A DNA stretch of 64,000 bases. Source: Candidatus Moraniibacteriota bacterium. Its GTDB lineage: Bacteria > Patescibacteriota > Minisyncoccia > Moranbacterales > UBA1568. The number at the start of each line of letters is the position of its first letter. Positions within the stretch are counted from its first letter, which is position 1. This document shows positions 3,203 to 40,614 of this stretch, piece after piece. The notes under the pieces are model-generated. The model was not told the origin of the DNA, did no database searches, and saw only the letters and a list, made by a program, of their open reading frames with translations. The translations under genes were made by a program, and so were the position numbers. The stretch spans positions 30,581 to 94,580 of the forward strand of contig JAQTRS010000001.1 of NCBI GenBank assembly GCA_028711705.1, written 5' to 3'.

Positions 3203-3322
3203 TACCCCCCAACAAGAAATCATCACGGATAGTGCTTTAAATGAGCCATATTTACGACTATTTACATCTCTTGTATAGTATAGTATACTAGAAACATACA
3301 TTTGTAGATAAGTATACTCTCT

Positions 3323-4747: not shown

Positions 4748-4780
4748 GGAAAGAATTTTTAGTTTTTATGATTTTTTATT

Positions 4781-5311: not shown

Positions 5312-5331
5312 AGTGGGGTAAATTTACACAT

Positions 5332-5745: not shown

Positions 5746-5761
5746 ATTTTACAAGAAAGTT

Positions 5762-6406: not shown

Positions 6407-6411
6407 AACAT

Positions 6412-7146: not shown

Positions 7147-7169
7147 TTGAAAGTAAAATATTTCTCAGT

Positions 7170-8408: not shown

Positions 8409-8415
8409 TTTATGT

Positions 8416-9393: not shown

Positions 9394-9436
9394 TTTTATG
9401 TGAATGAATACTCGCTCTAAGGATTGATATTAACGG

Positions 9437-10426: not shown

Positions 10427-10435
10427 AGTTAAATT

Positions 10436-13400: not shown

Positions 13401-13552
13401 ACTGGAACCTCAAAGAAACAGTACGTGCTCGATTACGTCGGGATGTGAAACGTATTCTTAATCGATATGGGTATCCACCAGATGAACAGTTAGTTGCGAC
13501 AGAGAATGTCTTGAAACAGGCTGAGTTGATGGCGAGTGAATTAGGGGAGTAA
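10436..13552 (+). CDS. hsdR: Type I restriction enzyme endonuclease/translocase subunit HsdR
   Basis: 1038 aa. The N-terminus [24 protein letters not shown] is typical of HsdR. A nuclease motif ([15 protein letters not shown]) is followed by SF2 helicase motifs (GSGKS..., DEAHRSQ). Confidence 0.92.
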
Positions 13553-20223: not shown

Positions 20224-20244
20224 TATATTTTCAGGGGAGTATGC

Positions 20245-21882: not shown

Positions 21883-21911
21883 GGCGACATAATATCATTT
21901 GAAACAAGAGC

Positions 21912-23057: not shown

Positions 23058-23066
23058 TTTTTTAGC

Positions 23067-24284: not shown

Positions 24285-24290
24285 TAGCAA

Positions 24291-25118
24291 GTGTTCTCTA
24301 TGCAGCCAGTCGATGTTTCCATCGCCATCAACAGTTACAAGAATACGGAGCTTCTCAGGCTCTGTATCGAGTCCATCAAAAGAAACGTGAAAGGCGTTTC
24401 TTTTGAGGTTATCGTCGTGGATGGGGAAACGGAAGAATCCACGGCCATGATGATGCGCGAGGATTTTCCGGATGTCCGGTTCTTTTCCTTCGCCGAGAAT
24501 GTCGGATTCCGGCGCCTGGTCCAGAAGGGGCTGGAGATGAGCCGGGGCTCATATGCGCTTTTGCTCAACAGCGATATCATCGTGACGCCGGGCGTGGTGG
24601 AAGAGATGTACGCCTTTTTGAAGGGTCGGCCGGATATCGGTATGGTGGGACCCAAGCTTTTGGGTTTCAATGAGCTGTTCCAGGAATCATGCTTCCGTTT
24701 CTATAAGCCGATAACCATACTCTACCGACGGACATTCTTGGGGCGCTTCGGTTTCGCCAAACGGCATATCGATTGGTTCTTGATGCGCGATTACGATCAT
24801 AAGCATCCGCAGGAAGTGGATTGGCTGATGGGATCGGCGATGATGGTGTCGCAAGCGTCCGTGCGGAAGGTGGGCTTTATGGACGAGCGGTTTTTCATGT
24901 ATATGGAGGATGTGGATTGGTGCCGAAGATTTTGGGAAAACGGGTACAAGGTGGTGTATTACCCGTATGCGCATATGTACCACTATCACGGCAAAGGAAG
25001 CGCTCGGGGAGGCTTTTTGCGTTCGCTTCTGTTCAATAAGCTGATGTGGTATCACATCGCGAGCGCATTCAAATATTTCAAGAAGTATCGAGGAAAGCCA
25101 TTGCCATCGCATGATTAA
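24291..25118 (+). CDS. Glycosyltransferase family 2
   Basis: VSIAINSYKNTELLRLCIESI...VIVVDGETEE, DXD-type motifs and the GT2 layout. Confidence 0.8.
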   Translation: MFSMQPVDVSIAINSYKNTELLRLCIESIKRNVKGVSFEVIVVDGETEESTAMMMREDFPDVRFFSFAENVGFRRLVQKGLEMSRGSYALLLNSDIIVTPGVVEEMYAFLKGRPDIGMVGPKLLGFNELFQESCFRFYKPITILYRRTFLGRFGFAKRHIDWFLMRDYDHKHPQEVDWLMGSAMMVSQASVRKVGFMDERFFMYMEDVDWCRRFWENGYKVVYYPYAHMYHYHGKGSARGGFLRSLLFNKLMWYHIASAFKYFKKYRGKPLPSHD

Positions 25119-25136
25119 ATAACATGAAGACACATT

Positions 25137-26429
25137 ATGGAAATGAACACTAAAGAAAACAATGCAGGTCCCAGGCGCGTTTCGAGAAAATCCCAGCTCG
25201 TGCCGCTCATCGTCATGATTCTTCTGATGACAGGGTCGTTTTGGGTCGGTTTCGAGCGGGGTGCTCAGAAGGCCTGTGTGGCCAAGGACGCTTCTTCGGC
25301 AAGCGATGCGGTCGTTTCTCCGCAGGGCGCGTTTATTTTGAATAAGAACGATGACCATGCCGTCGATTTCAGCCTGTTTTGGAAATCATGGGATCTGCTC
25401 AAGGACAAGTATGTCGATCGGGCAAAGCTTGATGCCAATGAGATGATGTATGGCGCCATCAAGGGCATGCTCGCTTCGACTGGGGATCCGTATACGACGT
25501 TTTTTGATCCGAAAGAGAACAAGGAATTCCAAGAGGAGATGACCGGAAGCTTCCAGGGCATCGGGGCCGAGATCGGCATGAAAGACAATGTCTTGACCAT
25601 CGTGGCGCCGCTGGATGATTCTCCGGCGCAGAAGGCCGGTCTTCAGGCAGGAGACAAGATCCTCAAGATTGACGATGTGACGACGATGGATATGGATTTG
25701 AACAAGGCGGTGAGCTTGATTCGTGGTGAAAAGGGAACCGAGGTGAAGCTGACGATTTTTCGTAATGGCAGCGATGAGCAGACCAAGGAGGTATCGGTCA
25801 AGCGCGACGTTATCAGCGTGAAAAGCGTGAAGACCGAAGTGAGGGATGACGGTATCGCGGTTATCAAAGTGAGCCGATTCGGCGACGATACCGCCGAGGC
25901 CTTCAATCAGGCTATCGCGGATGTCGCTGCGAAAAAAAGCCGCGGCCTAATTCTCGATCTGCGCAATAATCCTGGAGGATACCTGGATGCCGCCGTGTCT
26001 ATGGCGAGCCTCATGCTTCCCGAGGACAAGGTGGTCGTGATGGAGGAGAACAGCAAGGGTGATCGCAAGAAGATGTATGCCAAGGGCGGCGATAAGGTGA
26101 GCGGCATCGAGACGGTGGTGCTCATCAATGAAGGAAGCGCCAGTGCTTCGGAAATCCTTGCCGGTGCGCTTCAGGACAATCGCGCCAATGTGACGCTCAT
26201 AGGAAAGAAATCTTTCGGCAAAGGTTCGGTTCAGGAGCTGGTGCCGGTCACCAAGGATACGTCGGTCAAGATTACCGTAGCCAGGTGGCTGACTCCTAAT
26301 GGCAAGCAGATCAATCATGAAGGTATTGCACCGAGTGTCGATATCGAAATCAGCGAAGATGACAGAAAAGCGCAGAAAGATCCGCAATTCGACAAAGCGG
26401 TCGAGGTTTTGCAGGAAAAAATGCAATAA
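25137..26429 (+). CDS. ctpA: C-terminal processing peptidase, S41 family, with PDZ domain
   Basis: PDZ segment (DDSPAQKAGLQAGDKILKIDD). S41 motifs LILDLRNNPGGYL and GASASASEILAGAL. Confidence 0.85.
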   Translation: MEMNTKENNAGPRRVSRKSQLVPLIVMILLMTGSFWVGFERGAQKACVAKDASSASDAVVSPQGAFILNKNDDHAVDFSLFWKSWDLLKDKYVDRAKLDANEMMYGAIKGMLASTGDPYTTFFDPKENKEFQEEMTGSFQGIGAEIGMKDNVLTIVAPLDDSPAQKAGLQAGDKILKIDDVTTMDMDLNKAVSLIRGEKGTEVKLTIFRNGSDEQTKEVSVKRDVISVKSVKTEVRDDGIAVIKVSRFGDDTAEAFNQAIADVAAKKSRGLILDLRNNPGGYLDAAVSMASLMLPEDKVVVMEENSKGDRKKMYAKGGDKVSGIETVVLINEGSASASEILAGALQDNRANVTLIGKKSFGKGSVQELVPVTKDTSVKITVARWLTPNGKQINHEGIAPSVDIEISEDDRKAQKDPQFDKAVEVLQEKMQ

Positions 26430-28943: not shown

Positions 28944-30926
28944 ATGCATCAGGAAATTACATTTTTCGCCAAAACCAACTTCCGCAATCAGCAGCGGGTG
29001 TTCGGCATCAAGACCGACGATCGGCGTCGGCATATGTATGTTATTGGAAAGACGGGAATGGGGAAGACGAACCTTCTGGAGAATCTCGTCATCCAAGACA
29101 TCCAGCATGGGCACGGGGTCGCTTTTATCGATCCTCACGGAGACACGGCCGAAAAGATCATCAAGGCCATCCCGGCGCACCGTATCAACGATGTGATCTA
29201 TTTCAATCCGGCCGACCAGGAATTTCCCCTCGCCTTCAATGTGATGGAAAGTGTCAGTCTGGAGCATCGCCATCTGGTGGCTTCCGGACTCGTGGGCGTG
29301 TTCAAGAAAATCTGGGCGGACTCGTGGGGGCCTCGTTTGGAATACATCCTCCGTAACGCTATTTTGGCCCTTCTGGAGTATCCGGGAAGCACGCTTTTGG
29401 GCGTGACCCGCATTTTGGTGGACAAGGAGTACCGCAAGCGCGTCGTGGACAAGGTGACGGACCCGGTGGTGAAGTCCTTCTGGGTGGATGAGTTCACCAA
29501 GTGGAATGACCGTGTTTTGCAGGAGGTGATCGCGCCTATTCAGAACAAGGTGGGGCAGTTCTTGTCGAGCTCGCTTATCCGTAATATCGTCGGACAGACC
29601 AAGTCGTCTTTCGATGTGCGTGAGGCGATGGATTCGCGCAAGATTATCGTCCTCAACCTTTCCAAGGGTCGCATCGGCGAGGACAATAGCGCCCTTTTGG
29701 GTGCCATGATGATCACCAAGATCCAATTGGCAGCCATGGGACGCGTGGATATCGAAGAGGATGAGCGCAAAGATTTCTACCTCTACGTCGACGAGTTTCA
29801 GAACTTCGCCACGGAATCGTTCGCCAATATCCTATCCGAAGCGCGAAAGTACCGCTTGAGCCTTATCTTGGCGAACCAGTATGTCTCCCAGATCGACGAG
29901 AAGGTGCGCGATGCCATTTTTGGAAACGCCGGAACGATTATCAGTTTCCGTATCGGTGCGGCCGATGCGGAATTCCTCGAGAAAGAATTCGAGCCGGTTT
30001 TCATGGTGAACGATCTGGTCAATTTGCCGAAATTCAATGTCTATCTGAAACTCATGATCGACGGTGTGGCGGGGGATGCCTTCAGTGCGACCGTGCTGCC
30101 ACCGATCGAGCTCAAGTCTACTGTTGAAAATATCGAAAAGGTTATCCGCATTTCACGCGAGCGCTATACTTCCAAAAAGCAGGATGTCGAAGACAAGATC
30201 AGGCGTTGGACGGGCATGCTGACTGAAGAAGAGAAAGCGGTCTTGATGGACAGGGTGGCAGCCAGCCGCGCAGCGCAGCAGACGGGCGCTCCAGTCGGTA
30301 CTCCAGTGGCGTATCCGAAGCCAGCCGTGTCCACTCCGATGGCGCACACTCCTCGAGCATCCGCACCAGCATATTCTGTCAGCGCCCCTGTAGCCGCTAC
30401 TATGGGTGCAGGCGTAAGTGCGACCGTGCTCCCGGGCACGTCCGATAAGCCGATGTATGTCGCGTATTGTGCTGTATGTGATACTGAAATCAACGTGCCG
30501 TTCAAACCGGATGGCAAGCGCCCGACATTTTGTCGCGACCACCTAAAGGAATATCAGCGCACCGCTGCCAAGGCCAAAGAGGAAATGGAACGAAATGCCG
30601 CCGCGCGTCCGGGAATGCAGCGCAGCATTCCAGTGCAGCCGCACCTGAAATCGCAGGCACCGATCGAAAATCCGCGAACCGTGAATGAACGATCGGGCGT
30701 CCGTATCTCAACTGAAAAACCGCTGTCTTTGTCTCAGATGGAATATATCGCTCCGAAAAAGTTCACCCAGAAGCCCTCGACAGAAAGATTACCAGCGCAG
30801 GAGAGTGTTACGATTGATGCGCCTGCCGCCCCCGTGGCCCCTATCGCTCCTGCCGTGTCGGCACCTTCACAGACAGAGGAAGCTTCCGCAGAATCTGTTT
30901 TGCCGACTACTCCGTCCCTATTTTGA
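28944..30926 (+). CDS. TraD/TrwB/VirD4-like (type IV coupling protein-like) P-loop ATPase with a Pro/Ala-rich C-terminal tail
   Basis: Walker A VIGKTGMGKTNLL is followed by VAFIDPHGD. Walker B FYLYVDEFQNF. SLILANQ. The C-terminal 200 aa are low-complexity A/P/T-rich and contain a CAVCDTEINVPFKPDGKRPTFCRDH motif. Confidence 0.7.
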   Translation: MHQEITFFAKTNFRNQQRVFGIKTDDRRRHMYVIGKTGMGKTNLLENLVIQDIQHGHGVAFIDPHGDTAEKIIKAIPAHRINDVIYFNPADQEFPLAFNVMESVSLEHRHLVASGLVGVFKKIWADSWGPRLEYILRNAILALLEYPGSTLLGVTRILVDKEYRKRVVDKVTDPVVKSFWVDEFTKWNDRVLQEVIAPIQNKVGQFLSSSLIRNIVGQTKSSFDVREAMDSRKIIVLNLSKGRIGEDNSALLGAMMITKIQLAAMGRVDIEEDERKDFYLYVDEFQNFATESFANILSEARKYRLSLILANQYVSQIDEKVRDAIFGNAGTIISFRIGAADAEFLEKEFEPVFMVNDLVNLPKFNVYLKLMIDGVAGDAFSATVLPPIELKSTVENIEKVIRISRERYTSKKQDVEDKIRRWTGMLTEEEKAVLMDRVAASRAAQQTGAPVGTPVAYPKPAVSTPMAHTPRASAPAYSVSAPVAATMGAGVSATVLPGTSDKPMYVAYCAVCDTEINVPFKPDGKRPTFCRDHLKEYQRTAAKAKEEMERNAAARPGMQRSIPVQPHLKSQAPIENPRTVNERSGVRISTEKPLSLSQMEYIAPKKFTQKPSTERLPAQESVTIDAPAAPVAPIAPAVSAPSQTEEASAESVLPTTPSLF

Positions 30927-31158
30927 AACCGCTCGATAATTTGATATACTGTAAAAGAATCTATCCGTATCACGCAGAGTAATCGGCGAGCGGGATGAAA
31001 CGATGGATTGCAACCATTATCCGTATATCTCTTTGTCATATGCAAAATTTTCAGAGGCGTCATAAAAAAATATACGCTATTTGGGTTGTCATATCGGTAC
31101 TGACCGGCATTTCCATGCTACTGTTTCTTGTCGCACCTCTTTTCATGTACTAATCCCT

Positions 31159-31554
31159 ATGATCGGAAAAGCCTTTCGTTTTCTTATCCCTAAACTCTTC
31201 GTGATAGCGTCGCTTGTTTTGGCGTTTTGGATCGGGGATGTCACGCTCAAAGAAATGGATCGTGGGAAACGCATCCAAGAGGAAATCGCGTCGCTCCGTG
31301 CTGAAGCCCAGAAGACACAGAAGGAAAACACCGTTCTCCGGGAAAAGATACAATATTTCCAGACGGATGATTTTAAGACACAGGAGGCTCGCACCAAGCT
31401 CAATTACCAAAGTGAGAATGAACGGGCGGTGGTGATCAAGTCCGGCGTGGCCGATGACGCTGCTAAGACGCAGGAGATCGTGCCTGTCGAGCCCAAGGCC
31501 CAGGATTTCTCACCGAATTACGAGAAATGGTTGAAGCAGTTCTTCGCGGCGTGA
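31159..31554 (+). CDS. FtsB/DivIC-like septum formation initiator
   Basis: Single N-terminal TM segment, then a coiled coil (IASLRAEAQKTQKENTVLREKIQYF...DFKTQEARTKLNY), the typical FtsB layout. Confidence 0.55.
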   Translation: MIGKAFRFLIPKLFVIASLVLAFWIGDVTLKEMDRGKRIQEEIASLRAEAQKTQKENTVLREKIQYFQTDDFKTQEARTKLNYQSENERAVVIKSGVADDAAKTQEIVPVEPKAQDFSPNYEKWLKQFFAA

Positions 31555-31582
31555 ATTTTTTACACATGATAAAACATATACT

Positions 31583-32641
31583 ATGAATGAGCAGGAAAAA
31601 ATAAAAAGCATCAGCGTGAAGACCCTCCTTGCCGGAGGCGCTATCGTCCTTGCGGCGCTGCTTGTCGTGACGGCCGCGCTGGTGTATTTTTTCCCTCAGA
31701 ATTCGTGGGCGATGCGTGTCCGCCATATCCTTCCGTATCCGGCCATCCTGGTCAACGGATCGCACCCTATTTTTTTCCGCGATACGGACGAAGACGTCGC
31801 CTCTATCCGCCGTTTCTATGAAAGCCAATCCGATGATCTCTCCAAGGCGGGCATGCGGGTGGATTTTTCGACACCGGATGGGCAAAGGCGTCTTATGATC
31901 CGTGAAAAGGAACTGCTCAACAAGATGATCGAGGATGCTGCGGTGCGGATACTGGCCGAGGAACGCCATATTTCTATCACGGAAGATATGGTCAGTCAGA
32001 CCGTCGATCAGAAGATAAGCGCGCTCGGCAATAATCGCGAGGAGGTTGCCAAGCAGCTCGACCGCCTGTATGGCTGGACGATCAGCGATTTCGAGGAGAA
32101 AATAGTGCAGCCCGAACTCTATAAGGAGGAATTGTCCAAGGTCTATGCGGACGGTATCGACACCTCTTCTTCGGCAAAAAAGAAGATCGAGGATGCTGAG
32201 CACGATCTGAAGCAGGGCGAGTCGTTTGCGGACACGGCGAAGAAATACTCCGAAGGCAATACGGCCCAAGATGGCGGGGAACTGGGTTTCATCCCGGTGT
32301 CGAGTCTGACGGAGGAGGTCAAGGCGGCCTCGCAGAAGCAGAAGCTCAATCAGGTGACCGATATCATCGAGAGTCCGCTCGGTTTCCACCTGATTGTGAT
32401 CGAGGAGAGGAAGCAAGAGCAAGGTCAGGATATGATCCGATTGAAGCAGATTTTCACAAGGAAGATCACCTTCGCCGATTGGCTGACGAGTCAGATGCAG
32501 CGGATGAATGTCACCGTATTGTTCAAGGGATATATGTGGGATAAGGGAACGGCCCGCATCGAGTTCAAACAGCCCGAAATGAAGGCCTTCGAGGAAAACC
32601 TCTTACAGAAATCACAAGGAGACGCCTCCGTACTCTTCTAA
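31583..32641 (+). CDS. Peptidyl-prolyl cis-trans isomerase, parvulin (PpiC) type, SurA/PrsA-like, membrane-anchored
   Basis: N-terminal TM segment. The parvulin core is DGGELGFIPVSSLTEEVKAA...SPLGFHLIVIEER. Confidence 0.7.
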   Translation: MNEQEKIKSISVKTLLAGGAIVLAALLVVTAALVYFFPQNSWAMRVRHILPYPAILVNGSHPIFFRDTDEDVASIRRFYESQSDDLSKAGMRVDFSTPDGQRRLMIREKELLNKMIEDAAVRILAEERHISITEDMVSQTVDQKISALGNNREEVAKQLDRLYGWTISDFEEKIVQPELYKEELSKVYADGIDTSSSAKKKIEDAEHDLKQGESFADTAKKYSEGNTAQDGGELGFIPVSSLTEEVKAASQKQKLNQVTDIIESPLGFHLIVIEERKQEQGQDMIRLKQIFTRKITFADWLTSQMQRMNVTVLFKGYMWDKGTARIEFKQPEMKAFEENLLQKSQGDASVLF

Positions 32642-32679: not shown

Positions 32680-34005
32680 ATGGAAAAGAATACTCATGAC
32701 GAGATAATTGCGCCTACCAACGAGCCCGCTTTCGATACGGCACCGAATGCGGAACGGACGCTCTGTCGGAGGCATCACCGGTCACACCAGCTCCTTTTCG
32801 GAGCGCTGTTTGGCATTATTTTCGGCTTCATCGGCGGCGGACTCGCGCTCTTGTATATGCCGAAGATTCAGAGCGGCCTGCCTATCCCGTTCATGCAGCG
32901 ATTCCTGAAACCGACGGCGGAGCAGCCTCAGGCGGTTCCGCTACCGCAGAATCTGACCGTGGAGGATGAGGCAGTGATCACGACCGTCGATAAGACATCG
33001 CCTGCGGTCGTGAGCGTGGTGATCAGCCGGGATGTGCCGAAACTGCAACGGGGAGGGATGAGCCCTTTCGGATTCCCATTTTTCATGATGCCCCAGGACC
33101 TTCAGGGCGGGGATGCGCCGGCAGCCGGCGATACGGAAAAGCAGACCGTGGGCCAGGGTTCCGGATTCATCGTCTCGGCCGATGGGCTTATCGTGACCAA
33201 TAAGCACGTGGTATCGGCGACCTCCGCGGACTATACCGTCATTACGACCGACGGCAAGGAATTTCAGGCCCAAGTGTTGGCGCGCGACCCGAATCGGGAC
33301 ATCGCCTTGCTCAAGATTGATGCCAAAGATCTGCCGTTTTTGGAGCTCGGTAATTCGGATGCCGTGAAGGTCGGTCAGACCGTGGTGGCTATCGGGAACT
33401 CTTTGGGCGAATTCAGCAACACGGTGAGCAAAGGTATCATATCGGGACTGAAGCGTAATCTGGTGGCGGGTTCGGACGGTGGCGGAAGCGAGCGCCTGAG
33501 CAATATCATCCAGACGGATGCAGCGATCAATCCAGGCAATTCCGGAGGACCGCTTTTGAATACGGACGGCCAGGTGATCGGCGTCAATGTGGCGATGGCA
33601 CAAGGGGCGCAGAGTATCGGTTTTGCGCTGCCGGCGAATCAGATCAAGAAAATCATCGACCAGGTCCGGTCGACGGGAAAGATAACCACCGCCTTCCTCG
33701 GTGTCCGTTATATCATGCTGACTCCGGAAATCCAGAAGGAGAATGCCCTGCCGCTCGATCATGGCGCACTTATCTTGCGCGGGGATAAGATGACGGATTT
33801 TGCGGTTATTCCGGGTTCTCCGGCGGACAAGGCGGGGATTATGGAAAACGATATCATAGTGGAAATCAACGGTACGAAGATCGACAATGACCGACAGATA
33901 GCGGATATTGTTGCCGACAATCAGCCGGGCGATACGATGCAAGTCACGGTGTGGCATAAGGGCGAGACCAAAACTATAGCAGTCACGCTGGAGGAGAAAA
34001 AATAA
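32680..34005 (+). CDS. htrA: HtrA/DegP-family serine protease with PDZ domain (catalytically intact)
   Basis: Catalytic His in TNKHVV, Asp in DIALLKI, Ser in GNSGGPLLN. A C-terminal PDZ domain. Confidence 0.85.
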   Translation: MEKNTHDEIIAPTNEPAFDTAPNAERTLCRRHHRSHQLLFGALFGIIFGFIGGGLALLYMPKIQSGLPIPFMQRFLKPTAEQPQAVPLPQNLTVEDEAVITTVDKTSPAVVSVVISRDVPKLQRGGMSPFGFPFFMMPQDLQGGDAPAAGDTEKQTVGQGSGFIVSADGLIVTNKHVVSATSADYTVITTDGKEFQAQVLARDPNRDIALLKIDAKDLPFLELGNSDAVKVGQTVVAIGNSLGEFSNTVSKGIISGLKRNLVAGSDGGGSERLSNIIQTDAAINPGNSGGPLLNTDGQVIGVNVAMAQGAQSIGFALPANQIKKIIDQVRSTGKITTAFLGVRYIMLTPEIQKENALPLDHGALILRGDKMTDFAVIPGSPADKAGIMENDIIVEINGTKIDNDRQIADIVADNQPGDTMQVTVWHKGETKTIAVTLEEKK

Positions 34006-34051
34006 AAACGCGTTTTGAGGTGGATTTGTTTTGATTATTATCGACACCCCT

Positions 34052-36700
34052 ATGAATATCAATCAATTTACATCGAAAAGTCAGGAGGCATTGAGAAATG
34101 CTCAGGAGATCGCGTTGTCACGAGGGACGCAGCAGGTGGATATCCCGCACCTGCTTTATGCCCTGATTATCCAGGAAGACTCGGTGGTCCCGACGGTCAT
34201 GCGTAAGCTGCAGGCGGATGTCGAAAAAGTGAAGGGGGCGATTTTGGGGATCATCGAGAGCCTGCCGCAAGGGGGTGCCGGAGGTGCTGCCGGGCAGATC
34301 TATGTTGCGCCGCATTTGGGCAAGGTGATCGATCAGGCGGAAAAAGAAATGAAGAAAATCGGCGATACGTTCATCTCGACCGAGCATCTCTTATTGGCGA
34401 TACTGAGTAATGCTTCCTCATCCAAAACGGCGCTGGAAAAAGCCGGCATCACCTATGATACGGTATTGAAGACCCTCTCGCAGGTGCGAGGAAGCCAGCG
34501 CGTGGAGAGCGCGGAACCCGAGCAGAGCTATCATTCGCTGGAAAAGTATACGGTCAATATGACTGAGCTTGCCCGTAATGAGAAGATCGATCCGGTAATC
34601 GGGCGCGATGAGGAGATTAGGCGCGTGATGCAGGTGCTCAGCCGTCGCACCAAAAATAACCCGGTGCTGATCGGTGAGGCAGGAACAGGCAAAACGGCCA
34701 TCGTCGAGGGATTGGCACAACGTATTGTTGCGGGCGATGTTCCGGACAATCTTAAGAATAAGGAATTAGTCCTGCTCGATCTGGCATCGATTCTGGCGGG
34801 AGCCAAGTTTCGCGGCGAATTCGAAGAGCGGCTCAAGGCGATTCTGAAAGAAGTGGATGCGGCGGCCGACAAATATATTTTGTTTATCGATGAACTTCAT
34901 ACTCTCGTGGGCGCCGGCGCTACGGAAGGGTCTTTGGACGCGTCCAATATGCTCAAACCCGCCCTGGCCCGCGGGAAATTGCGTACCATCGGCGCTACGA
35001 CACTCAAGGAATATCAGAAGTATATCGAAAAAGACGCGGCTCTGGAACGGCGCTTCCAACCGGTCATGGTAAGTGAACCGTCCGAGGAAGATTCTTTGGC
35101 GATGCTTCGTGGCATCAAGGAGAAATACGAATTGCATCACGGCGTGCGTATCACCGACGATGCCCTGGTGGCGGCGGTGAAACTTTCGAAGCGATACATC
35201 ACGGATCGATTTTTGCCGGACAAGGCGATCGATTTGGTGGACGAGGCAGCGTCGCTTCGTCGTATCGAAATCAACTCCTTGCCAACCGATATCGACCAAT
35301 TGGAGCGTTCTATCCGCCGTTTGGAAATCGAGCGTCGGGCCCTGGAAAAAGAAACGGATGAAGCGGGCGTTACGGAAAAGCTTCGGGATATCAATAAGGA
35401 ACTGGCCGATCTGAAGGAGCGTTCGCAAAAGCAGACCCTGCAGTGGAAGACGGAACGGGATCTTATCACGGCCATCCGCGGTCATAAGGAGAAAATCGAT
35501 GCTTTGAAGTCGGAATCGGAAGTGGCCGAGCGCGAAGGACGATTGGATCGTGTGGCAGAAATCCGCTACGGGGATATCCCGACTTTGGAAAAGCAGATTA
35601 AGGTGGAGGGGAAGAAATTGAACAAGGCTCAGAAGAACGGTTTCATCCTTCGCGAAGAAGTGACGGAAGAGGATATCGCGATCATCGTGTCCAAATGGAC
35701 GAATGTGCCGGTCTCCAAAATGCTGGCGGGCGAGATGGAAAGGCTGACGCATATGGAAACCGAGCTCTCCAAACGGGTCATCGGGCAAAAAGATGCGATC
35801 GCATCGGTCTCCAATGCGATCCGGCGTTCACGCTCAGGACTTGCGGAGGAAGGCAAGCCGATTGGGTCCTTCATTTTCCTGGGCATGACCGGGGTTGGTA
35901 AGACGGAGCTCGCGAAAGCCCTGGCCGAGTTTTTGTTCGATGATGAAAAGGCGCTTATTCGTATCGATATGAGCGAATATATGGAAGCGCATTCGACCGC
36001 CAAGTTCATCGGATCACCTCCGGGATACATCGGGTATGACGAGGGCGGGCAGTTGACCGAGATGGTCCGCAGGCGTCCGTATAGCGTGATTCTCTTTGAC
36101 GAAATCGAGAAGGCGCATCCGGATGTCTTCAATAGTATGCTGCAAATCCTTGATGACGGGCGATTGACGGATGCCCGGGGACGAGTAGTCAATTTCAAGA
36201 ACACGGTGATCATCATGACATCCAATGTCGGTTCCGATCTGCTCTCCAGTCCGACGCAGGAGCTGGGCTTCCGGGAGGAAGCGGACAGACAGGCCGAGGA
36301 GAACGAGCGGGAACTTCGGGAGAAAGTATTCAAGAGTCTGCGTGAAACATTTAAGCCAGAATTCCTGAATCGCATCGACGAGATCATCATGTTTCATCCG
36401 CTGACGCCCGAGATGCTCGCCAGAATCGCCGACATCCAGCTGCAGAAAGTGATCGACCGCCTCAAAGAAAGGAGTATCGGATTAAGCATTACAGAGGAAG
36501 CCAAAGCGTATATCGCGAAAATAGGGTATGATCCATTATACGGCGCTCGACCGCTCAAGCGCGTCATTCAGAGCCAGGTGCTGGACATACTCTCGATGAA
36601 GGTGCTCTCCAAGGAAATCGCGGAGGGCGATCGCGTGCGTATGGATGCAGTGCAAGAGAAGCTCATCTTTACTAAGGAACGTACCAAAACAAGAAAATAA
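34052..36700 (+). CDS. clpB: ATP-dependent chaperone ClpB
   Basis: Clp N-domain at the N-terminus. Two AAA modules ([15 protein letters not shown] and [15 protein letters not shown]). A long middle coiled-coil domain. ~880 aa. Confidence 0.9.
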
Positions 36701-36703
36701 CCT

Positions 36704-37444
36704 ATGCTTTTCAATTTTTCTATTTTGTTTTCATCGCTGCTCTTTTTGGGCGGACTTGAGTTGGTTATTTTCCAATCCGAGCACGTGATTGCCTCGGCCA
36801 TGCTCATCACCGTCCTGACGCTCCATGCCTCGCACCGTATCGGCAAGGGCCTGTTTTCGGGCGTAATCCCTCTTACCTTCGCGCTTTCCGCGGTGATGCT
36901 GCTGTATCTGGTCGATTCCATGATGCAACGCCAGTGGCTGATCGGACTGAGCTTCGGGGTCTATTACCTTGCTTTTTTGGGCATATATAGGTTACGATAC
37001 TATGAGCGGGATAAGACAGCCCGCGGTATGGTGTCTTTCGTGGTGATGGCCACCATGTTCCTTTTTTATGCGAGCATTTACGGACTGTACCTCAATTTCG
37101 CTGTCCCGATATGGGGATTTATGCTGGCATACTGTGCTGTAACCGCGTTGCTCAGCTATCAGTATTTTCTGCTTTTCGACCAGACACAAACGCGTCGGGT
37201 GCGCATATATAGCCTCATACTGGGACTTTCCATGGCGGAAGTCGCCTGGATCATCAATTTCTGGCCGTTCGGCTATCTGACTACCGGCGTCGTAGTGCTT
37301 ATGTTCTACTACATCCTCTGGGATTTGGTTCAGAGCTATTTTTTGAAGGATCTCTCCAAGAAGCGCATTTTCGTACACCTTGTACTCTTCGGTTTTCTGA
37401 TCGGCATGGTGCTGACGAGTACGCGATGGGTTCCGGTGGCGTAA
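36704..37444 (+). CDS. Polytopic membrane protein, hypothetical
   Basis: ORF starts 4 nt after the clpB stop. 6-7 hydrophobic helices. Confidence 0.5.
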   Translation: MLFNFSILFSSLLFLGGLELVIFQSEHVIASAMLITVLTLHASHRIGKGLFSGVIPLTFALSAVMLLYLVDSMMQRQWLIGLSFGVYYLAFLGIYRLRYYERDKTARGMVSFVVMATMFLFYASIYGLYLNFAVPIWGFMLAYCAVTALLSYQYFLLFDQTQTRRVRIYSLILGLSMAEVAWIINFWPFGYLTTGVVVLMFYYILWDLVQSYFLKDLSKKRIFVHLVLFGFLIGMVLTSTRWVPVA

Positions 37445-37469: not shown

Positions 37470-38648
37470 ATGAACGTTGTGAAGAAAATCGGATGGATCT
37501 TATTGCTCATACTGTTCGTCGCGTTTTTCGGCGGCGTCGGTTCCGTCGTCATCGATCGCTATCTGATTCCGAAGTTCGCAGGATCCTCCATATTCTATCG
37601 TTTCGCCTTCCTCAAGAAAGCCACTGAAAACACGACCATTATCAATAAGACGGAGCAGGTGGTGGTGCGCGAAGATGACTCGGTGGAGAAGATCGCGTCC
37701 CAAGCGACGACCGCCGTGGTCAAGATCGTGAGCGTGTCGGACAATAAGGCGCTGAAGACGACGGATAATTTGGCGGACACGCAAACGAACGCACCGGCAT
37801 TCGTGGTGGGGTCGGGCGTTTTGGTGACCAATGACGGGTTCATCGTGACCTACCGCAAGGCGATCACGGAAAAGAGCGCGACCTATACCGTGATGCTCTT
37901 CAATGGCGCGACACATGAAGCACGGCTTCTGGGTATCGATCCTTTGACCAATCTGGCCTACCTGAAAATCCAGGCCGACAATGTCCCGGCCATCTCGTTC
38001 TCCAATTCCGGCGATGTCCGCTCGGGCAAGAAATTGATCGCGCTCGCCGCATCTTCCCAGGGTTATCAGAATCAGTTCTCGACAGCGCTCCTCAATACTA
38101 TCGACAAGACCTTCAACCTGTCGGAAAAGACAGTCTCTTCTTCCGAGAAGTTGGAAGGCGTTTTCACGATGGATTTTCCGAATCAGAAGGACTATGTCGG
38201 CGGACCGGTCATCAACTACAACGGCGAGATGGTGGGTCTTGTCGGATGGACCGAGATGGACAATCAGAAACAGTATTTTGTCTTGCCGTCCAACACCATC
38301 AAGTCATCCTTGGACTTGGCATTGAGGGATGAATTAAGCAATCGTCCGGTGCTCGGATTGTACTACCTCTCCATCACCAAGGAGATGAGCCTCGCATATC
38401 GTTTTGAACGCGATTACGGCGCCCTGGTCTATTCTCCTTCGGGAAAATCGAGTTTGGCGGTCATCGCCGGCTCTCCCGCGGACCAGGCGAACTTCTCGGT
38501 GAATGACATCATCCTTGCGGTCAATGGCAAGGAGATCAACCTCGACAATCCGCTTTCCGTCGTAGTTAGCCAATTGAAGAAAGGAGACACTGCCGAATTC
38601 CTCGTCTTGCGTAACAAGGAGGAAATAAAGATTTCGGTGACGCTGTAA
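37470..38648 (+). CDS. HtrA-like trypsin-fold/PDZ protein with all three catalytic residues replaced, a probable pseudoprotease.
   Basis: It aligns to the upstream HtrA, but His becomes Lys (TYRKAI), Asp becomes Asn (NLAYLKI) and Ser becomes Val (YVGGPVIN). The PDZ domain is retained. Confidence 0.65.
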   Translation: MNVVKKIGWILLLILFVAFFGGVGSVVIDRYLIPKFAGSSIFYRFAFLKKATENTTIINKTEQVVVREDDSVEKIASQATTAVVKIVSVSDNKALKTTDNLADTQTNAPAFVVGSGVLVTNDGFIVTYRKAITEKSATYTVMLFNGATHEARLLGIDPLTNLAYLKIQADNVPAISFSNSGDVRSGKKLIALAASSQGYQNQFSTALLNTIDKTFNLSEKTVSSSEKLEGVFTMDFPNQKDYVGGPVINYNGEMVGLVGWTEMDNQKQYFVLPSNTIKSSLDLALRDELSNRPVLGLYYLSITKEMSLAYRFERDYGALVYSPSGKSSLAVIAGSPADQANFSVNDIILAVNGKEINLDNPLSVVVSQLKKGDTAEFLVLRNKEEIKISVTL

Positions 38649-38674: not shown

Positions 38675-38701
38675 ATTAGCACCCGTCCTTGACGAGTGCT
38701 A
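38675..38701 (+). promoter_or_regulatory. CIRCE element (HrcA operator) overlapping a TTGACG-N17-TATAAT promoter in front of groES.
   Basis: TTAGCACCC-N9-GAGTGCTAA matches the CIRCE consensus TTAGCACTC-N9-GAGTGCTAA. The -35 box is at 38688-38693 and the -10 at 38711-38716. Confidence 0.75.
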
Positions 38702-38747
38702 AGTTTTTTCTTATAATTGAGGTATAAACAGTAATAGCGAATCCCTT

Positions 38748-39023
38748 ATGAATACCGTACACGTAAAGCCGCTCGGCAAGAATATCCTGGTCCTCCCGCA
38801 GCAGGCGGAGAAGAAAACGGACACCGGCATTTTCCTCCCGGACACCGCCACTCAGGAACGCCCCCAGCAGGGGAAAGTCATCGCCGTGGGGGAAAGTGAC
38901 AAGATCACCGTCAAGCCCGGTCAGACGGTCATTTACACCCGCTACGGCGGTACCGAAGTCAAGATCGATGACCAAGAGTACCTGATCGTGAAAAACGAGG
39001 ATGTCTTGGCGGTCATCGGGTAG
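38748..39023 (+). CDS. groES: Co-chaperonin GroES
   Basis: 91 aa. VKPLGKNILVLPQQAEKKTDTGIFLPD...GKVIAVGE is typical of Cpn10. Confidence 0.9.
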   Translation: MNTVHVKPLGKNILVLPQQAEKKTDTGIFLPDTATQERPQQGKVIAVGESDKITVKPGQTVIYTRYGGTEVKIDDQEYLIVKNEDVLAVIG

Positions 39024-39097: not shown

Positions 39098-39237
39098 GTT
39101 ACTGAGAACAAGATTCAAACCTTTTGTCTATTGCATTGGCTTGCATAAAATACATGATTCGGTGAAATAATGGTACTATATATTCAAAGAGGGTGGGTGT
39201 TGAATCGAGGCAGGATTTTCCCATATATATTAAACCT

Positions 39238-40614
39238 ATGAGTAAAGTGGAGAAAGATTTCATCGAGGAGATGGCGGAGGCCCCGGCAATCATCTTGGAG
39301 AAGACGCTCAAGACGACCGGTGAGGCCATCGCGAGCCTCCCGGGAAAAACATCGCTCAAGAAGGCGCGCCGCTATTGGGACACCTTGGGGCCGGGACTGA
39401 CGACCGGAGCATCCGACGATGATCCGTCGGGCATCGCGACCTATTCGCAGACGGGTGCCCAATACGGCTTCCAGCTTCTGTGGCTGGCGCCGTTCACGTT
39501 CCCGCTCATGGCCACGATCCAGGAAATGTGCGCCCGCATCGGGATGCAGACCGGCAACGGGCTGGCATCCAATATCCGGCAGAACTTCTCAAAGAAAATC
39601 CTCTATGGCACAGCCGGGCTGCTCCTTGCGGCAAACGCCTTCAATATCGGTGCGGATCTGGGCGCGATGGCACAGGGAGTGAGGCTGCTCATCCCTTCGA
39701 TGAATGCCGGATTACTCGTCATCTTCTTTACGCTCCTCAGTATCGGGCTGCAGATCTTCGTTTCGTATGCGCGCTATGCCCAATACCTCAAATACCTCGC
39801 GCTCGTTTTGCTCGCATACATCGTGTCGGCGATTTTGGCCGGCCTGGATTGGCGACAGGTCGCGCATGCCGCCGTGGTCCCGTCGATCACGTTTTCCAAG
39901 GACCAGGTCATACTGATCTGCGCCATTTTGGGAACGACCATCTCCCCATACCTTTTCTTCTGGCAGTCCTCGCAGGAAGTGGAGGAGGAAATCAGCAAGG
40001 GAAAAACGTCGCCCCAATCGCGCAAGGGTATGGCAAAGAAAGAGATCCGTGAAATGCGCGTCGATGTCTGGTCGGGCATGTTCCTCTCCAATGCCGTCAT
40101 GTTCTTCATTATCGCCGCCTGCGCCGCTGTTTTGTATTCGCGCGGCATCACCACCATCACCAGCGCTGCCGAGGCTGCCGAGGCGCTGCGTCCGTTCGCG
40201 GGCGACTCGACCTATTTCTTATTCGCGCTCGGGATTATAGGGACGGGGCTTTTGGCGATACCGGTGCTGGCAGGATCGGCCGCCTATGTCATAGCGGAGA
40301 GTTTCGATTGGAAGACCGGCCTTTCGAAAACCCTCAAGCAGGCGCGCGCTTTCTACGGCGTGATCATCATCGCCATGTGCGCCGGCCTTGCGATGAACTT
40401 CGTCGGACTGGACCCTATCAAGGCCCTGATCTATTCCGCTGTCTTAAACGGGCTCATCGCGCCGGTCATCTTGGTGCTCATCGTGCGTCTCAGCAGCAGC
40501 AAACTCGTCATGGGCAAACGCACTAATGGCCCCTTAACCACTGCCGTCGGCTGGTTTACGGTCACCCTTATGGTCTTTGTCGGACTGGCAACCATCTCTG
40601 CTTTGTTCGTGTAA
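39238..40614 (+). CDS. mntH: Nramp-family divalent metal transporter (MntH-like)
   Basis: GPGLTTGASDDDPSGIATYSQTGAQYGFQLLWL is the Nramp signature. ~11 TM helices. An upstream alternative start exists at 39193. Confidence 0.85.
   Translation: MSKVEKDFIEEMAEAPAIILEKTLKTTGEAIASLPGKTSLKKARRYWDTLGPGLTTGASDDDPSGIATYSQTGAQYGFQLLWLAPFTFPLMATIQEMCARIGMQTGNGLASNIRQNFSKKILYGTAGLLLAANAFNIGADLGAMAQGVRLLIPSMNAGLLVIFFTLLSIGLQIFVSYARYAQYLKYLALVLLAYIVSAILAGLDWRQVAHAAVVPSITFSKDQVILICAILGTTISPYLFFWQSSQEVEEEISKGKTSPQSRKGMAKKEIREMRVDVWSGMFLSNAVMFFIIAACAAVLYSRGITTITSAAEAAEALRPFAGDSTYFLFALGIIGTGLLAIPVLAGSAAYVIAESFDWKTGLSKTLKQARAFYGVIIIAMCAGLAMNFVGLDPIKALIYSAVLNGLIAPVILVLIVRLSSSKLVMGKRTNGPLTTAVGWFTVTLMVFVGLATISALFV

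What the first reader, a model, noticed from the sequence alone, without database searches (positions are those of the whole stretch)
37470..38648. Catalytically dead HtrA paralog (His to Lys, Asp to Asn, Ser to Val) retained next to an active HtrA and ClpB
The protein keeps the HtrA signal/TM anchor, trypsin fold and PDZ domain, but all three triad positions are substituted. These changes were read by direct alignment with the intact HtrA at 32680-34005. Losing all three catalytic residues while keeping the fold intact points to a pseudoprotease. It may act as a regulatory or chaperone-only DegP-like scaffold, or as a substrate-delivery adaptor for the active paralog.
Basis: seen in the sequence. 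Interest (0 to 1): 0.6.

Follow-up and report, generated by a model that had tools for sequence, protein, structure and literature searches.

The report
Dead HtrA protease with membrane partner
A protease-like gene in a Moranbacteria (candidate phyla radiation) genome has lost all three catalytic residues, yet it is kept under strong selection in well over a hundred species, almost always right after an uncharacterised 9-helix membrane protein, so it is a repurposed 'pseudoprotease' and not a broken gene.

Summary
ORF 37470-38648 encodes a 392-aa membrane-anchored HtrA-fold protein with one PDZ domain, and its triad positions read K130/N161/V243.

The loss is family-wide. In 120 database homologues and 80 species-representative genomes, none has His. 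Ser appears in 1 of the 120 database homologues and in none of the 81 genome copies. dN/dS is 0.03-0.09, the same as for the active HtrA.

- **Conserved partner:** this is the DUF5656 membrane protein directly upstream (36704-37444), present in 69 of 70 informative loci. ClpB lies between in 28 of 58 loci and GroES follows in 4 of 72. GroES also has its own CIRCE promoter.
- **Relationship to the active HtrA:** the dead gene is not a recent copy of the neighbouring active HtrA. Its nearest triad-intact relatives are HtrAs of other Patescibacteria that also sit directly downstream of DUF5656. It therefore looks like a degenerate descendant of an ancestral DUF5656-linked HtrA.
- **What each copy kept:** the dead copy keeps the PDZ carboxylate-binding Arg, which the local active HtrA has lost.

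The most likely function is a non-catalytic, ligand-binding envelope factor working with DUF5656. HtrA pseudoproteases are already known (MamO, PflC). This is a new, undescribed family with a new partner.

The parts
37470..38648 (+). Dead HtrA-family gene (392 aa): TM anchor, degenerate trypsin-fold domain, one PDZ domain
   Evidence: ORF. Pfam Trypsin_2 and PDZ_2. HtrA fold by Foldseek, E about 1e-24. Identical protein in NCBI named 'S1C family serine protease [Candidatus Moranbacteria bacterium]'.
37491..37553 (+). N-terminal signal-anchor/TM helix (aa 8-28, GWILLLILFVAFFGGVGSVVI) with conserved GG.GG motif
   Evidence: AF2 helix 2-37. K5K6 precede the hydrophobic stretch. G21 is nearly invariant and P34 is invariant.
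37632..37658 (+). Conserved linker motif T.INKTEQ (aa 55-63) between the TM helix and the protease domain
   Evidence: T56, I58, N59, K60, T61, E62 and Q63 are at least 90% conserved. The monomer model has low pLDDT here. Weaker versions occur in outgroup active HtrAs.
37857..37859 (+). Ex-His codon (K130, AAG), preceded by the family-specific Y128 (Asn in all active HtrAs)
   Evidence: The position is unconstrained across the family (E/N/D/S/K/T/G).
37950..37952 (+). Ex-Asp codon (N161, AAT)
   Evidence: Asn in 110 of 120 homologues.
38118..38165 (+). L3-loop-position motif LSEKTVSSSEKLEGVF (aa 217-232), with invariant K227, E229 and G230
   Evidence: More conserved than in active HtrAs. K227 sits where actives have R/K (the DegS Arg178-like position; assigned by position relative to the QTD motif, which is an inference).
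38196..38198 (+). Ex-Ser codon (V243, GTC) within Y-V-G-G-P (active HtrAs: N-S-G-G-P)
   Evidence: L/V/I in 117 of 120. G244 is invariant and G245/P246 are nearly invariant (retained).
38337..38645 (+). PDZ domain (aa 290-392) with an intact carboxylate-binding loop R292-P-V-L-G296-L297 (38343-38360)
   Evidence: Pfam PDZ_2. R292 in 13 of 13 sampled and G296 invariant. Fits the R/K-xxx-G-phi motif described in PMC11642142.
36704..37444 (+). DUF5656 (PF18900) 9-helix membrane protein, the conserved upstream partner; 25-nt gap to the dead HtrA start
   Evidence: Pfam 41 bits. Directly upstream in 69 of 70 informative loci. AF2 pLDDT 90. No PDB fold match. Median gap 76 nt.
37418..37441 (+). DUF5656 C-terminal tail (STRWVPVA-COOH), fixed length across the family and predicted to be extracytoplasmic
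   Evidence: Trp at -5 in 78 of 78 and in 71 of the 72 loci. Terminal V/I in 71 of 78. Positive-inside topology.
32680..34005 (+). Catalytically intact HtrA (H176, D207, S288), the probable first gene of the same transcription unit
   Evidence: Upstream of the dead gene in 44 of 54 informative loci. Lacks the PDZ carboxylate-loop Arg.
34031..36700 (+). ClpB, a variable insert between the active HtrA and DUF5656 and not a conserved partner
   Evidence: Present in 28 of 58 informative loci.
31081..32641 (+). DivIC/FtsB-like gene and PpiC/SurA-like PPIase gene, the conserved upstream part of the envelope block
   Evidence: Pfam. PPIase upstream in 42 of 52 loci.
38676..38717 (+). CIRCE operator overlapping a promoter-like site. 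It marks the start of the separate groES unit and so the downstream boundary of the dead-HtrA unit.
   Evidence: CIRCE with 1 mismatch, 0 expected by chance. TTGACG-17-TATAAT, 11 of 12 matches.

Best explanation
The gene encodes a non-catalytic, membrane-anchored HtrA-fold/PDZ protein facing the outside of the cell. It works as a binding module, not a cleaving one, together with the DUF5656 membrane protein encoded just upstream.

**Shown:**
- All three triad residues are lost family-wide.
- The fold, the TM anchor and the PDZ domain with its carboxylate-binding Arg loop are retained.
- Purifying selection is as strong as on the active HtrA.
- The gene is almost always coupled to DUF5656.
- In other Patescibacteria, a triad-intact HtrA occupies the same position after DUF5656.

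**Inferred:**
- The ancestor was an active DUF5656-linked HtrA.
- In Moranbacteria a second, active HtrA took over proteolysis, and the DUF5656-linked copy kept only its non-catalytic job. That job would be binding C-termini or unfolded segments of envelope or secreted proteins, or binding DUF5656 itself, through the PDZ domain and the highly conserved L3-position loop.
- The local active HtrA has in turn lost the PDZ Arg. That looks like a division of labour between a binding copy and a cutting copy.

Whether the two HtrAs touch each other is not known.
For: **Triad loss and intact fold.**

**Selection.** dN/dS is 0.03-0.09 for the dead copy, 0.015-0.18 for the active copy and 0.025-0.07 for DUF5656. 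Mean pairwise identity over 55 genomes is 0.49, 0.57 and 0.43 respectively.

**Coupling to DUF5656.** DUF5656 is directly upstream in 69 of 70 loci, with a median gap of 76 nt.

**Outgroup arrangement.** An active (TNKHV / GNSGGP) HtrA lies directly after DUF5656 in L081, L082/L083, L086 and L087.

**Relationship.**
- The dead profile scores linked actives at 292-309 bits and local actives at 184-220 bits.
- The dead clade is monophyletic in 200 of 200 bootstraps, and dead plus local-active group in 0 of 200.
- Residues shared by the dead family and the outgroup but not the local active copy: R292, Q200, E229, R381.

**Retained binding elements.** The PDZ loop R-xxx-G-phi is intact, and K227/E229/G230 in the L3-position loop are invariant (motif definition from PMC11642142).

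**DUF5656 surface.** Its invariant residues cluster on the predicted outer face, and its C-terminus has a fixed length.

**Published support.** Inactive HtrA variants retain protective, chaperone-like function (PMC11642142). Pseudoprotease precedents are MamO and PflC.
Against: - No biochemical, expression or interaction data exist. Everything functional is inferred from sequence, synteny and models.
- 86 alignment columns conserved in active HtrAs, including the L2/S1-pocket region and AAINPGNSGG, are no longer conserved in the dead family. Canonical substrate-cleft binding may therefore be lost too, which weakens a simple 'DegP-S210A-like holdase' picture.
- Covariation between the DUF5656 tail class and the dead HtrA shows no PDZ enrichment (3 of 22 tracking sites against 105 of 379 scored) and is confounded by phylogeny.
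- The sister-group relation to DUF5656-linked actives is not resolved by the NJ tree (dead+linked in 1 of 200; dead+linked+unlinked in 50 of 200). The dead clade sits on a long branch.
- 2 of 6 sampled outgroup actives are not next to DUF5656.
- One Moranbacteria locus (L021) lacks DUF5656 upstream.
Confidence: 0.6

Rival explanations
1. MamO-like regulator. The dead HtrA's main job is to activate or deliver substrates to the active HtrA encoded upstream. It would do this either in mixed trimers (its L3-position loop contacting the LD loop of an active neighbour) or through trans contacts. It would act as the PDZ 'sensor' that the active copy has lost.
For: - The active HtrA is upstream in 44 of 54 informative loci, probably in the same operon. 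No strong + strand promoter or terminator lies between 34005 and 37470.
- Degeneration is complementary. The dead copy keeps the PDZ carboxylate Arg (13 of 13). The local active copy has T or I there (10 of 10 sampled).
- The basic residue at the L3 position is invariant. L3-to-LD' trans-activation is the standard HtrA mechanism (PMC11642142).
- MamO activates MamE-dependent proteolysis without being catalytic (PMC4794232).
Against: - 10 of 54 loci with at least 6.5 kb of upstream DNA have no active HtrA nearby, yet they keep the DUF5656-dead pair.
- The two proteins are only 28% identical and belong to different HtrA lineages. That makes mixed trimers less likely than for recent duplicates.
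- Coupling to DUF5656 is much tighter (69 of 70 loci).
- No multimer modelling was possible.
Confidence: 0.22
2. Structural scaffold, like PflC. The HtrA oligomerisation tendency has been co-opted to build a fixed envelope structure anchored by DUF5656, for example a lattice or ring associated with cell division or with surface-polymer or pilus machinery.
For: - PflC is an HtrA-derived, triad-less lattice protein (PMC12222027).
- The neighbourhood is rich in envelope and division genes: DivIC, PPIase, Wzy, LytR-CpsA-Psr, a CtpB-like S41 protease and a T4CP-like ATPase.
- New conserved surfaces, the linker motif and the L3-position loop, lie in regions that are disordered in the monomer model.
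Against: - There is no evidence for any higher-order assembly.
- The PDZ peptide-binding loop and the L3 sensor position are kept, which suggests ligand binding and not only packing.
- Unlike PflC, the active-site region has not atrophied structurally. The His-bearing strand and the GGP turn are retained.
Confidence: 0.1
3. It is still a hydrolase and uses non-canonical catalytic residues, for example a Ser/Lys dyad from the conserved SSEK motif or S180/K187.
For: Several Ser and Lys residues are invariant or nearly invariant (S180, S224, S225, K187, K188, K220, K227).
Against: - No conserved His exists anywhere.
- K130 at the ex-His site is not conserved.
- The ex-Ser is always aliphatic.
- S180 and the E226-K/R227 pair are shared with active HtrAs, where they are structural or regulatory.
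- The SSEK motif lies in a low-confidence flexible loop.
- The L2/S1-pocket columns are no longer conserved.
Confidence: 0.04
4. Decaying relic. The gene is a non-functional remnant of a duplicated protease on its way to loss.
For: All three catalytic residues are substituted, and the Trypsin_2 score is less than half that of the active copy (56 versus 133 bits).
Against: - The ORF is intact in 80 of 80 species-representative genomes, and 139 species matched.
- dN/dS is 0.03-0.09.
- 18 columns are invariant and about 65 are nearly invariant.
- New family-specific conserved motifs have appeared.
Confidence: 0.01

Closest known systems
DUF5656-linked, triad-intact HtrA of other Patescibacteria (e.g. 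P0274, P0390, P0391, P0414; uncharacterised)
   Same: Same architecture (TM anchor, protease domain, one PDZ). Same position directly downstream of DUF5656. Shared lineage residues (R292, Q200, E229, R381, K60/E62). Best-scoring active relatives of the dead profile.
   Different: They keep TNKHV, D and GNSGGP. Their DUF5656 partners end in ...QW[VI]PR...KWTLG or ...VIAIR and not in a hydrophobic V/I. Only about 25-30% identity.
MamO (magnetosome HtrA-family pseudoprotease; PMC4794232)
   Same: A trypsin/HtrA-fold protein with a degenerate active site, kept alongside an active HtrA (MamE) whose proteolysis it promotes. It arose where two proteases were redundant.
   Different: MamO keeps His and Asp, with Thr as the nucleophile. 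It binds metal through a di-His motif (H148/H263), carries a C-terminal transporter domain and has no PDZ. Here no His is conserved, a PDZ is present, and the NCBIfam MamO score is 49 bits against a cut-off of 800.
PflC (Campylobacter jejuni flagellar medial-disk protein; PMC12222027)
   Same: An HtrA-derived protease-plus-PDZ architecture lacking the triad (Asp to Asn there too), co-opted for a non-catalytic envelope role.
   Different: PflC is soluble and periplasmic, has two PDZ-like domains, has lost the His-bearing loop and forms a motor lattice. Here there is a TM anchor, a single PDZ, a preserved core around the ex-active site and no flagellar context.
DegS / single-PDZ membrane-anchored HtrAs, and proteolytically inactive DegP variants (S210A)
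   Same: DegS-like layout: N-terminal anchor, protease domain, one PDZ with a carboxylate-binding loop, and a basic residue at the L3 position. Inactive DegP/HtrA variants still protect cells in a chaperone-like way (PMC11642142).
   Different: DegS and DegP are active enzymes, and S210A is a laboratory mutant. Here the loss is natural, complete and ancient. TIGR02038 (DegS) scores 76 bits against 423, and TIGR02037 (DegP/HtrA/Do) 121 against 416.

Membership tests
HtrA / MEROPS S1C (Do family serine endopeptidase) | Chymotrypsin-fold protease domain | tested here: met
   Pfam Trypsin_2 56 bits (cut-off 27.6). Foldseek to DegP, MucD and M. tuberculosis HtrA, E about 1e-24, probability 1.00.
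HtrA / MEROPS S1C (Do family serine endopeptidase) | At least one C-terminal PDZ domain with a carboxylate-binding loop | tested here: met
   PDZ_2 49 bits. R292-PVL-G296-L297 conserved.
HtrA / MEROPS S1C (Do family serine endopeptidase) | His-Asp-Ser catalytic triad and GNSGGP motif | tested here: not met
   K130/N161/V243, with YVGGP in place of NSGGP. 0 of 81 genome copies have His or Ser.
HtrA / MEROPS S1C (Do family serine endopeptidase) | Reaches the curated NCBIfam score (TIGR02037 degP_htrA_DO, 416.2 bits) | tested here: not met
   120.7 bits. The intact neighbour also falls short (303.3 bits), so this cut-off is strict for CPR sequences.
HtrA / MEROPS S1C (Do family serine endopeptidase) | Homotrimer as the basic unit | not testable with these tools
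   No multimer prediction was available.
MamO-type pseudoprotease | Surface di-His metal site, C-terminal transporter domain, monophyly with MamO | tested here: not met
   No conserved His. The C-terminus is a PDZ domain. NF040961 scores 49 bits against 800.
DegS (sigma-E stress sensor protease) | Equivalog score, catalytic triad | tested here: not met
   TIGR02038 76 bits against 423. Triad absent.
PflC-type HtrA-derived scaffold | Two PDZ-like domains, loss of the His loop, flagellar motor context | tested here: not met
   One PDZ. The strand carrying the ex-His is retained (T127-Y128-R129 conserved). No flagellar genes were found among the window ORFs scanned with Pfam. No direct sequence comparison with PflC was made.
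DUF5656 (PF18900), for the partner gene 36704-37444 | Pfam gathering score | tested here: met
   41.4 bits against 23.3, covering profile positions 60-240 of 242.

The most novel reading that the evidence does not exclude
DUF5656 and the dead HtrA form a dedicated two-protein membrane machine held together by a PDZ-tail latch.

**Proposed mechanism.** The fixed-length, outward-facing C-terminus of DUF5656 (...[RK]W[LIM]PxV-COOH or ...PW[RH]I[LV]V-COOH, Trp always at -5) would be the cognate ligand of the pseudoprotease's PDZ domain. That PDZ still carries its carboxylate-binding Arg loop. The conserved L3-position loop would convert tail binding or release into a conformational signal for envelope or secreted-protein biogenesis.

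**Supporting correlation.** The hydrophobic terminal residue is found in Moranbacteria (dead HtrA) but not in four outgroup DUF5656 proteins that are paired with active HtrAs. This suggests the latch arose together with loss of catalysis.

**Second part.** The two Moranbacteria HtrAs would then have split an ancestral sensor-protease into a sensor-only copy and a protease-only copy.
Probability: 0.18. Interest if true: 0.7.

Novelty: new variant of a known kind. Interest (0 to 1): 0.5.

Why it matters
HtrA proteases are the main extracytoplasmic quality-control enzymes of bacteria. Only a few natural, non-catalytic HtrA descendants have been described (MamO, PflC), and each revealed an unexpected new function.

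This work defines a large pseudo-HtrA family:
- It is found in 139 or more species-level genomes, and the top 36 of the 50%-identity cluster representatives ranked by the family profile all lack the triad.
- It occurs in an uncultivated, reduced-genome CPR phylum where almost nothing is known about envelope biology.
- Public annotation calls every member a 'serine protease' or '2-alkenal reductase'.

It also gives the first functional handle on DUF5656, a confidently modelled 9-helix protein with no solved structural relative. DUF5656 is an HtrA-coupled membrane protein across Patescibacteria.

The natural contrast between an active DUF5656-linked HtrA in some lineages and a dead one in Moranbacteria is a ready-made comparative system. 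It allows the proteolytic and non-proteolytic roles of HtrA to be separated, a question still debated for DegP.

Tried and rejected
1. **Alternative triad.** I looked for a conserved His, or for Ser/Asp positions able to rebuild a triad. No His is conserved, and K130 is not conserved. Rejected.
2. **Heat-shock operon with ClpB and GroES.** ClpB is a variable insert (28 of 58 loci). GroES is rarely adjacent (4 of 72) and has its own CIRCE operator and promoter. Rejected as a functional unit.
3. **Recent tandem paralog of the active HtrA.** Rejected by profile scores, distances and bootstraps and by lineage-specific residues.
4. **Covariation between the DUF5656 tail and the PDZ groove.**
   - Per-position MI was dominated by phylogenetic noise.
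   - A tail-class test ranked PDZ site S327 top, with V364 and K370 on helix alpha-B also tracking. There was no PDZ enrichment overall (3 of 22). Inconclusive.
6. **MamO-like metal binding.** No conserved His pair. Rejected.
7. **Literature.** No paper in the searchable library mentions DUF5656, or an HtrA catalytic triad in Patescibacteria. The primary HtrA-PDZ specificity paper (PMC2211686) is not held. My recollection that human HtrA PDZ domains prefer Trp-rich peptides ending in Val therefore remains an uncited lead.
8. **Rfam scan of the window.** No hits.
9. **First tree script.** It timed out and was redone with a faster distance calculation.
Full report
**1.

The + strand ORF 37470..38648 encodes 392 aa. 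It aligns with the intact HtrA at 32680..34005 over 380 columns (28% identity, E 5e-44). It carries Pfam Trypsin_2 (56 bits) and PDZ_2 (49 bits) domains.

An AlphaFold2 model built on 85 homologues is confident (mean pLDDT 81, above 90 through both beta-barrels and the PDZ). It matches DegP, MucD, DegQ, DegS and M. tuberculosis HtrA structures at Foldseek E about 1e-24. A helix spanning residues 2-37 contains the hydrophobic stretch 8-28 preceded by K5K6. This is the usual signal-anchor of DegS-like HtrAs.

The catalytic H176/D207/S288 of the active copy align with K130, N161 and V243. The same equivalences appear against human HTRA1.

**2. The loss is ancient, family-wide and selected.**

The identical protein is in NCBI as 'S1C family serine protease [Candidatus Moranbacteria bacterium]'.

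- Among the 120 best homologues (47-100% identity, same architecture), the ex-His column is never His (D30, T26, K24, S22, G10 and others). The ex-Asp column is Asn in 110. The ex-Ser column is Leu, Val or Ile in 117.
- A scan of one genome per GTDB species found 139 species with a relative. In the 80 loci kept, 0 of 81 dead-type copies have His or Ser. All 53 complete active-type neighbours have H-D-S.
- Nei-Gojobori dN/dS on eight close genome pairs is 0.03-0.09 for the dead gene, 0.015-0.18 for the active HtrA and 0.025-0.07 for DUF5656.

The gene is therefore not decaying. The window's Lys130 is not itself conserved, so it cannot be a substitute catalytic base. No His is conserved anywhere in the family.

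**3. What was kept, lost and gained**.

- *Kept:* the core glycines, T127, the GGP turn after the ex-Ser, D235, the PDZ carboxylate-binding loop R292-xxx-G296-phi, and an invariant basic residue (K227) in the L3-position loop.
- *Lost:* 86 columns that are at least 90% conserved in the active copies are not conserved in the dead family. These include AAINPGNS and the L2/S1-pocket stretch.
- *Gained or tightened:*
  - Y128 (Asn in every active HtrA) and F/Y242 (Asn in actives), flanking the ex-active site.
  - A linker motif T.INKTEQ (residues 55-63).
  - An L3-position motif SSEK.EG (224-230).
  - PDZ residues Y298, S324-G325, L358 and P361.
  - Both motifs lie in regions of low confidence in the monomer model, as expected for interaction surfaces.

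**4. The conserved partner is DUF5656, not ClpB or GroES.**

I located homologues of each window neighbour in the 80 loci.

| Neighbour | Position relative to the dead gene | Informative loci |
|---|---|---|
| DUF5656 (36704-37444, PF18900) | directly upstream | 69 of 70 |
| Active HtrA | upstream, within 11 kb | 44 of 54 |
| ClpB | between the two | 28 of 58 |
| GroES | within 2 kb downstream | 4 of 72 |

The median gap from the DUF5656 stop to the dead HtrA start is 76 nt, and 25 nt in the window. The single exception is a rearranged locus, L021.

In the window, groES is preceded by a CIRCE operator (38676-38702, 1 mismatch, none expected by chance). It overlaps the best promoter-like site in the region. 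groES is therefore a separate HrcA-type unit.

The conserved block is T4CP-like ATPase, DivIC, PpiC/SurA-like PPIase, HtrA, [ClpB], DUF5656, dead HtrA.

**5. DUF5656.**

- The AF2 model is confident (pLDDT 90, pTM 0.87) and shows nine helices. It has no significant fold match in the PDB (best E 0.9). No paper in the library mentions the family.
- Loops 2, 4, 6 and 8 carry about 3 Lys+Arg each, against 0-0.8 in loops 1, 3, 5 and 7. This gives an N-in, C-out topology.
- The invariant residues (Y126, G127, N131; W187-P188-F189-G190-Y191, T193; W242) lie in or next to the predicted outer loops and tail. That is the side where the HtrA ectodomain sits.
- The C-terminus has a fixed length. Trp is at -5 in 78 of 78 database homologues and in 71 of the 72 loci. 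The last residue is Val or Ile in 71 of 78. There are two sequence classes, [RK]W[LIM]PxV and PW[RH]I[LV]V.
- A conserved, outward-facing, hydrophobic C-terminus next to a PDZ protein suggests a PDZ-tail contact. A covariation test was inconclusive and multimer modelling was not possible. I therefore carry this only as the novel reading.

**6. Origin.**

An exhaustive profile search of 1.84 billion cluster representatives ranks 36 triad-less representatives first. The first H-D-S protein, P0274, is at rank 37. Partial states (SDS, QDS, EDS, HDT) occur further down.

P0274 and its relatives are ordinary active HtrAs of other Patescibacteria. In 4 of 6 sampled, DUF5656 lies directly upstream: L081, L082/L083, L086 and L087. 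All four have TNKHV and GNSGGP. The other two are preceded by a DUF5665 gene and by an RseP-type M50 protease.

- The dead-family profile scores these linked actives at 292-309 bits. Moranbacteria's own active copies score 184-220 bits, and background HtrAs score 204-249 bits.
- In an NJ tree the dead clade is monophyletic in 200 of 200 bootstraps and never groups with the local active copies (0 of 200). Corrected distances are 1.49 to the linked actives and 1.86 to the local actives. The exact sister group is unresolved and the dead clade sits on a long branch.
- Residues R292, Q200, E229, G230 and R381 are shared by the dead family and the outgroup but not by the local active copy.

The simplest reading is that the DUF5656-HtrA pair is ancestral in this part of Patescibacteria. 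In Moranbacteria the DUF5656-linked copy lost catalysis while a second, divergent HtrA supplies it.

The local active copy has lost the PDZ carboxylate-binding Arg (T or I in 10 of 10 sampled), which the dead copy keeps (13 of 13). That pattern looks like complementary degeneration.

**7. Mechanism.**

*Most likely (about 0.6).* The protein is a non-catalytic binding module. It is anchored in the membrane and faces outward. It works with DUF5656 through its PDZ domain and L3-position loop.

*Rivals.*
- MamO-like activator or adaptor of the active HtrA (about 0.2, and not exclusive of the above). It is supported by the complementary degeneration and the operon layout. It is weakened by 10 of 54 loci without a nearby active HtrA and by the distant relationship.
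- PflC-like structural scaffold (about 0.1).
- Non-canonical hydrolase (about 0.04).
- Decaying relic (about 0.01, refuted by the selection data).

Proteolytically inactive HtrA variants are known to retain protective, chaperone-like effects, and L3-to-LD' signalling is the standard HtrA relay (PMC11642142).

**8. Comparison with known systems, and novelty.**

HtrA pseudoproteases are an established kind.
- MamO has a degenerate site, activates MamE and binds metal through two His residues (PMC4794232).
- PflC is a triad-less HtrA-derived lattice in the C. jejuni flagellar motor (PMC12222027).

The present family shares the principle but none of their defining features. It has no conserved His pair or transporter domain (MamO model 49 bits against 800). 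It has a single PDZ and a TM anchor, and no flagellar genes were found among the window ORFs I scanned.

It is a homologue of S1C proteases but fails the family's defining catalytic feature. Public annotations ('S1C family serine protease', 'serine protease Do', '2-alkenal reductase') are therefore functionally misleading.

I rate it a new variant of a known kind. It is a new, large, undescribed pseudo-HtrA family with a new obligate-looking membrane partner. Interest is moderate (0.5). A specialist would not be surprised that a dead HtrA exists. The DUF5656 coupling, the natural contrast between active and dead copies across lineages, and the possible split into sensor and protease copies are new and directly testable.

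**9. Limits.**

- Everything functional rests on sequence, synteny and single-chain models.
- Whole-genome content could not be checked, for example whether any Moranbacteria genome lacks an active HtrA.
- The tree is distance-based.
- The topology is inferred from the positive-inside rule alone.

Noticed in passing
window 38676-39023: groES (38748-39023) is preceded by a near-perfect CIRCE operator (TTAGCACCC-N9-GAGTGCTAA) overlapping a strong promoter-like site. No groEL follows: the next gene is an Nramp transporter (39193-40614), and none of the window ORFs scanned with Pfam is a Cpn60. An orphan, HrcA-controlled groES is unusual.
   Followed up: partly
window 32680-34005 (PDZ loop around residue 337) and active copies in L001-L080: The catalytically intact Moranbacteria HtrA has lost the conserved Arg of the PDZ carboxylate-binding loop (T or I in 10 of 10 sampled). 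The dead copy, 6 of 6 outgroup actives and 11 of 13 background HtrAs keep it. This is a possible complementary degeneration between the two copies.
   Followed up: partly
window 1658-13552: Low-GC block (34-44% against about 52% elsewhere) encoding a Type I restriction-modification system (HsdM 1658, HsdS 7170, HsdR 10436). It is interrupted by an AAA_14/DUF4143 ATPase (3323) and a DUF3644 protein (8392). It is probably a horizontally acquired defence island.
   Followed up: partly
window 28944-30926: 660-aa protein with a TrwB/TraG-type type IV coupling-protein ATPase domain, a C-terminal treble-clef zinc finger and a long Ala/Pro/Ser/Thr/Val-rich low-complexity region. It is syntenic upstream of DivIC in 28 of the related loci. 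Its role in a CPR genome is unclear.
   Followed up: no
window 19048-26429; L082, L086, L087: Envelope-polymer genes lie about 9-18 kb upstream of the pair in the window: two GT4 glycosyltransferases, a Wzy_C O-antigen ligase-like gene, LytR-CpsA-Psr and a CtpB-like S41 protease with PDZ. The same gene kinds (Wzz/GNVR, Wzy_C, GTs, LytR, sortase, CtpB) directly flank the DUF5656-active HtrA pair in outgroup Patescibacteria.
   Followed up: partly
proteins P0251, P0259, P0300, P0308, P0319, P0323, P0339: Cluster representatives near the dead family show partial triads (SDS, QDS, SES, EDS, HDT, QNS, QDS), some with an intact NSGGP motif. HtrA active-site decay in Patescibacteria seems to have occurred to different degrees, or several times.
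   Followed up: no
window 36704-37444 (DUF5656): One conserved acidic residue sits inside each of helices 1, 7 and 8 (E19, E179, D207), and the motif NFWPFGYLTTG (residues 185-195) is nearly invariant. Buried charges hint at transport or catalysis and not a purely structural role.
   Followed up: no
loci L001, L004-L007 and about 35 others: Many of the source MAG records are titled 'uncultured Bdellovibrionales bacterium'. Their gene content and closest proteins are Moraniibacteriota/Patescibacteria, so the record taxonomy looks wrong.
   Followed up: no
proteins P0045, P0048, P0050, P0071: Several orthologues of the dead HtrA are annotated '2-alkenal reductase' in NCBI. This is a propagated misannotation unrelated to the fold.
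   Followed up: no
L021:1-5055: This is the only informative locus where the dead HtrA is not preceded by DUF5656. A KH-domain protein gene lies upstream, and there is neither DUF5656 nor an active HtrA within 3.9 kb.
   Followed up: partly
L085:6618-9311: In one outgroup Patescibacterium the active HtrA sits directly after an RseP-type M50 site-2 protease with PDZ domains. This recalls the DegS-RseP cascade.
   Followed up: no
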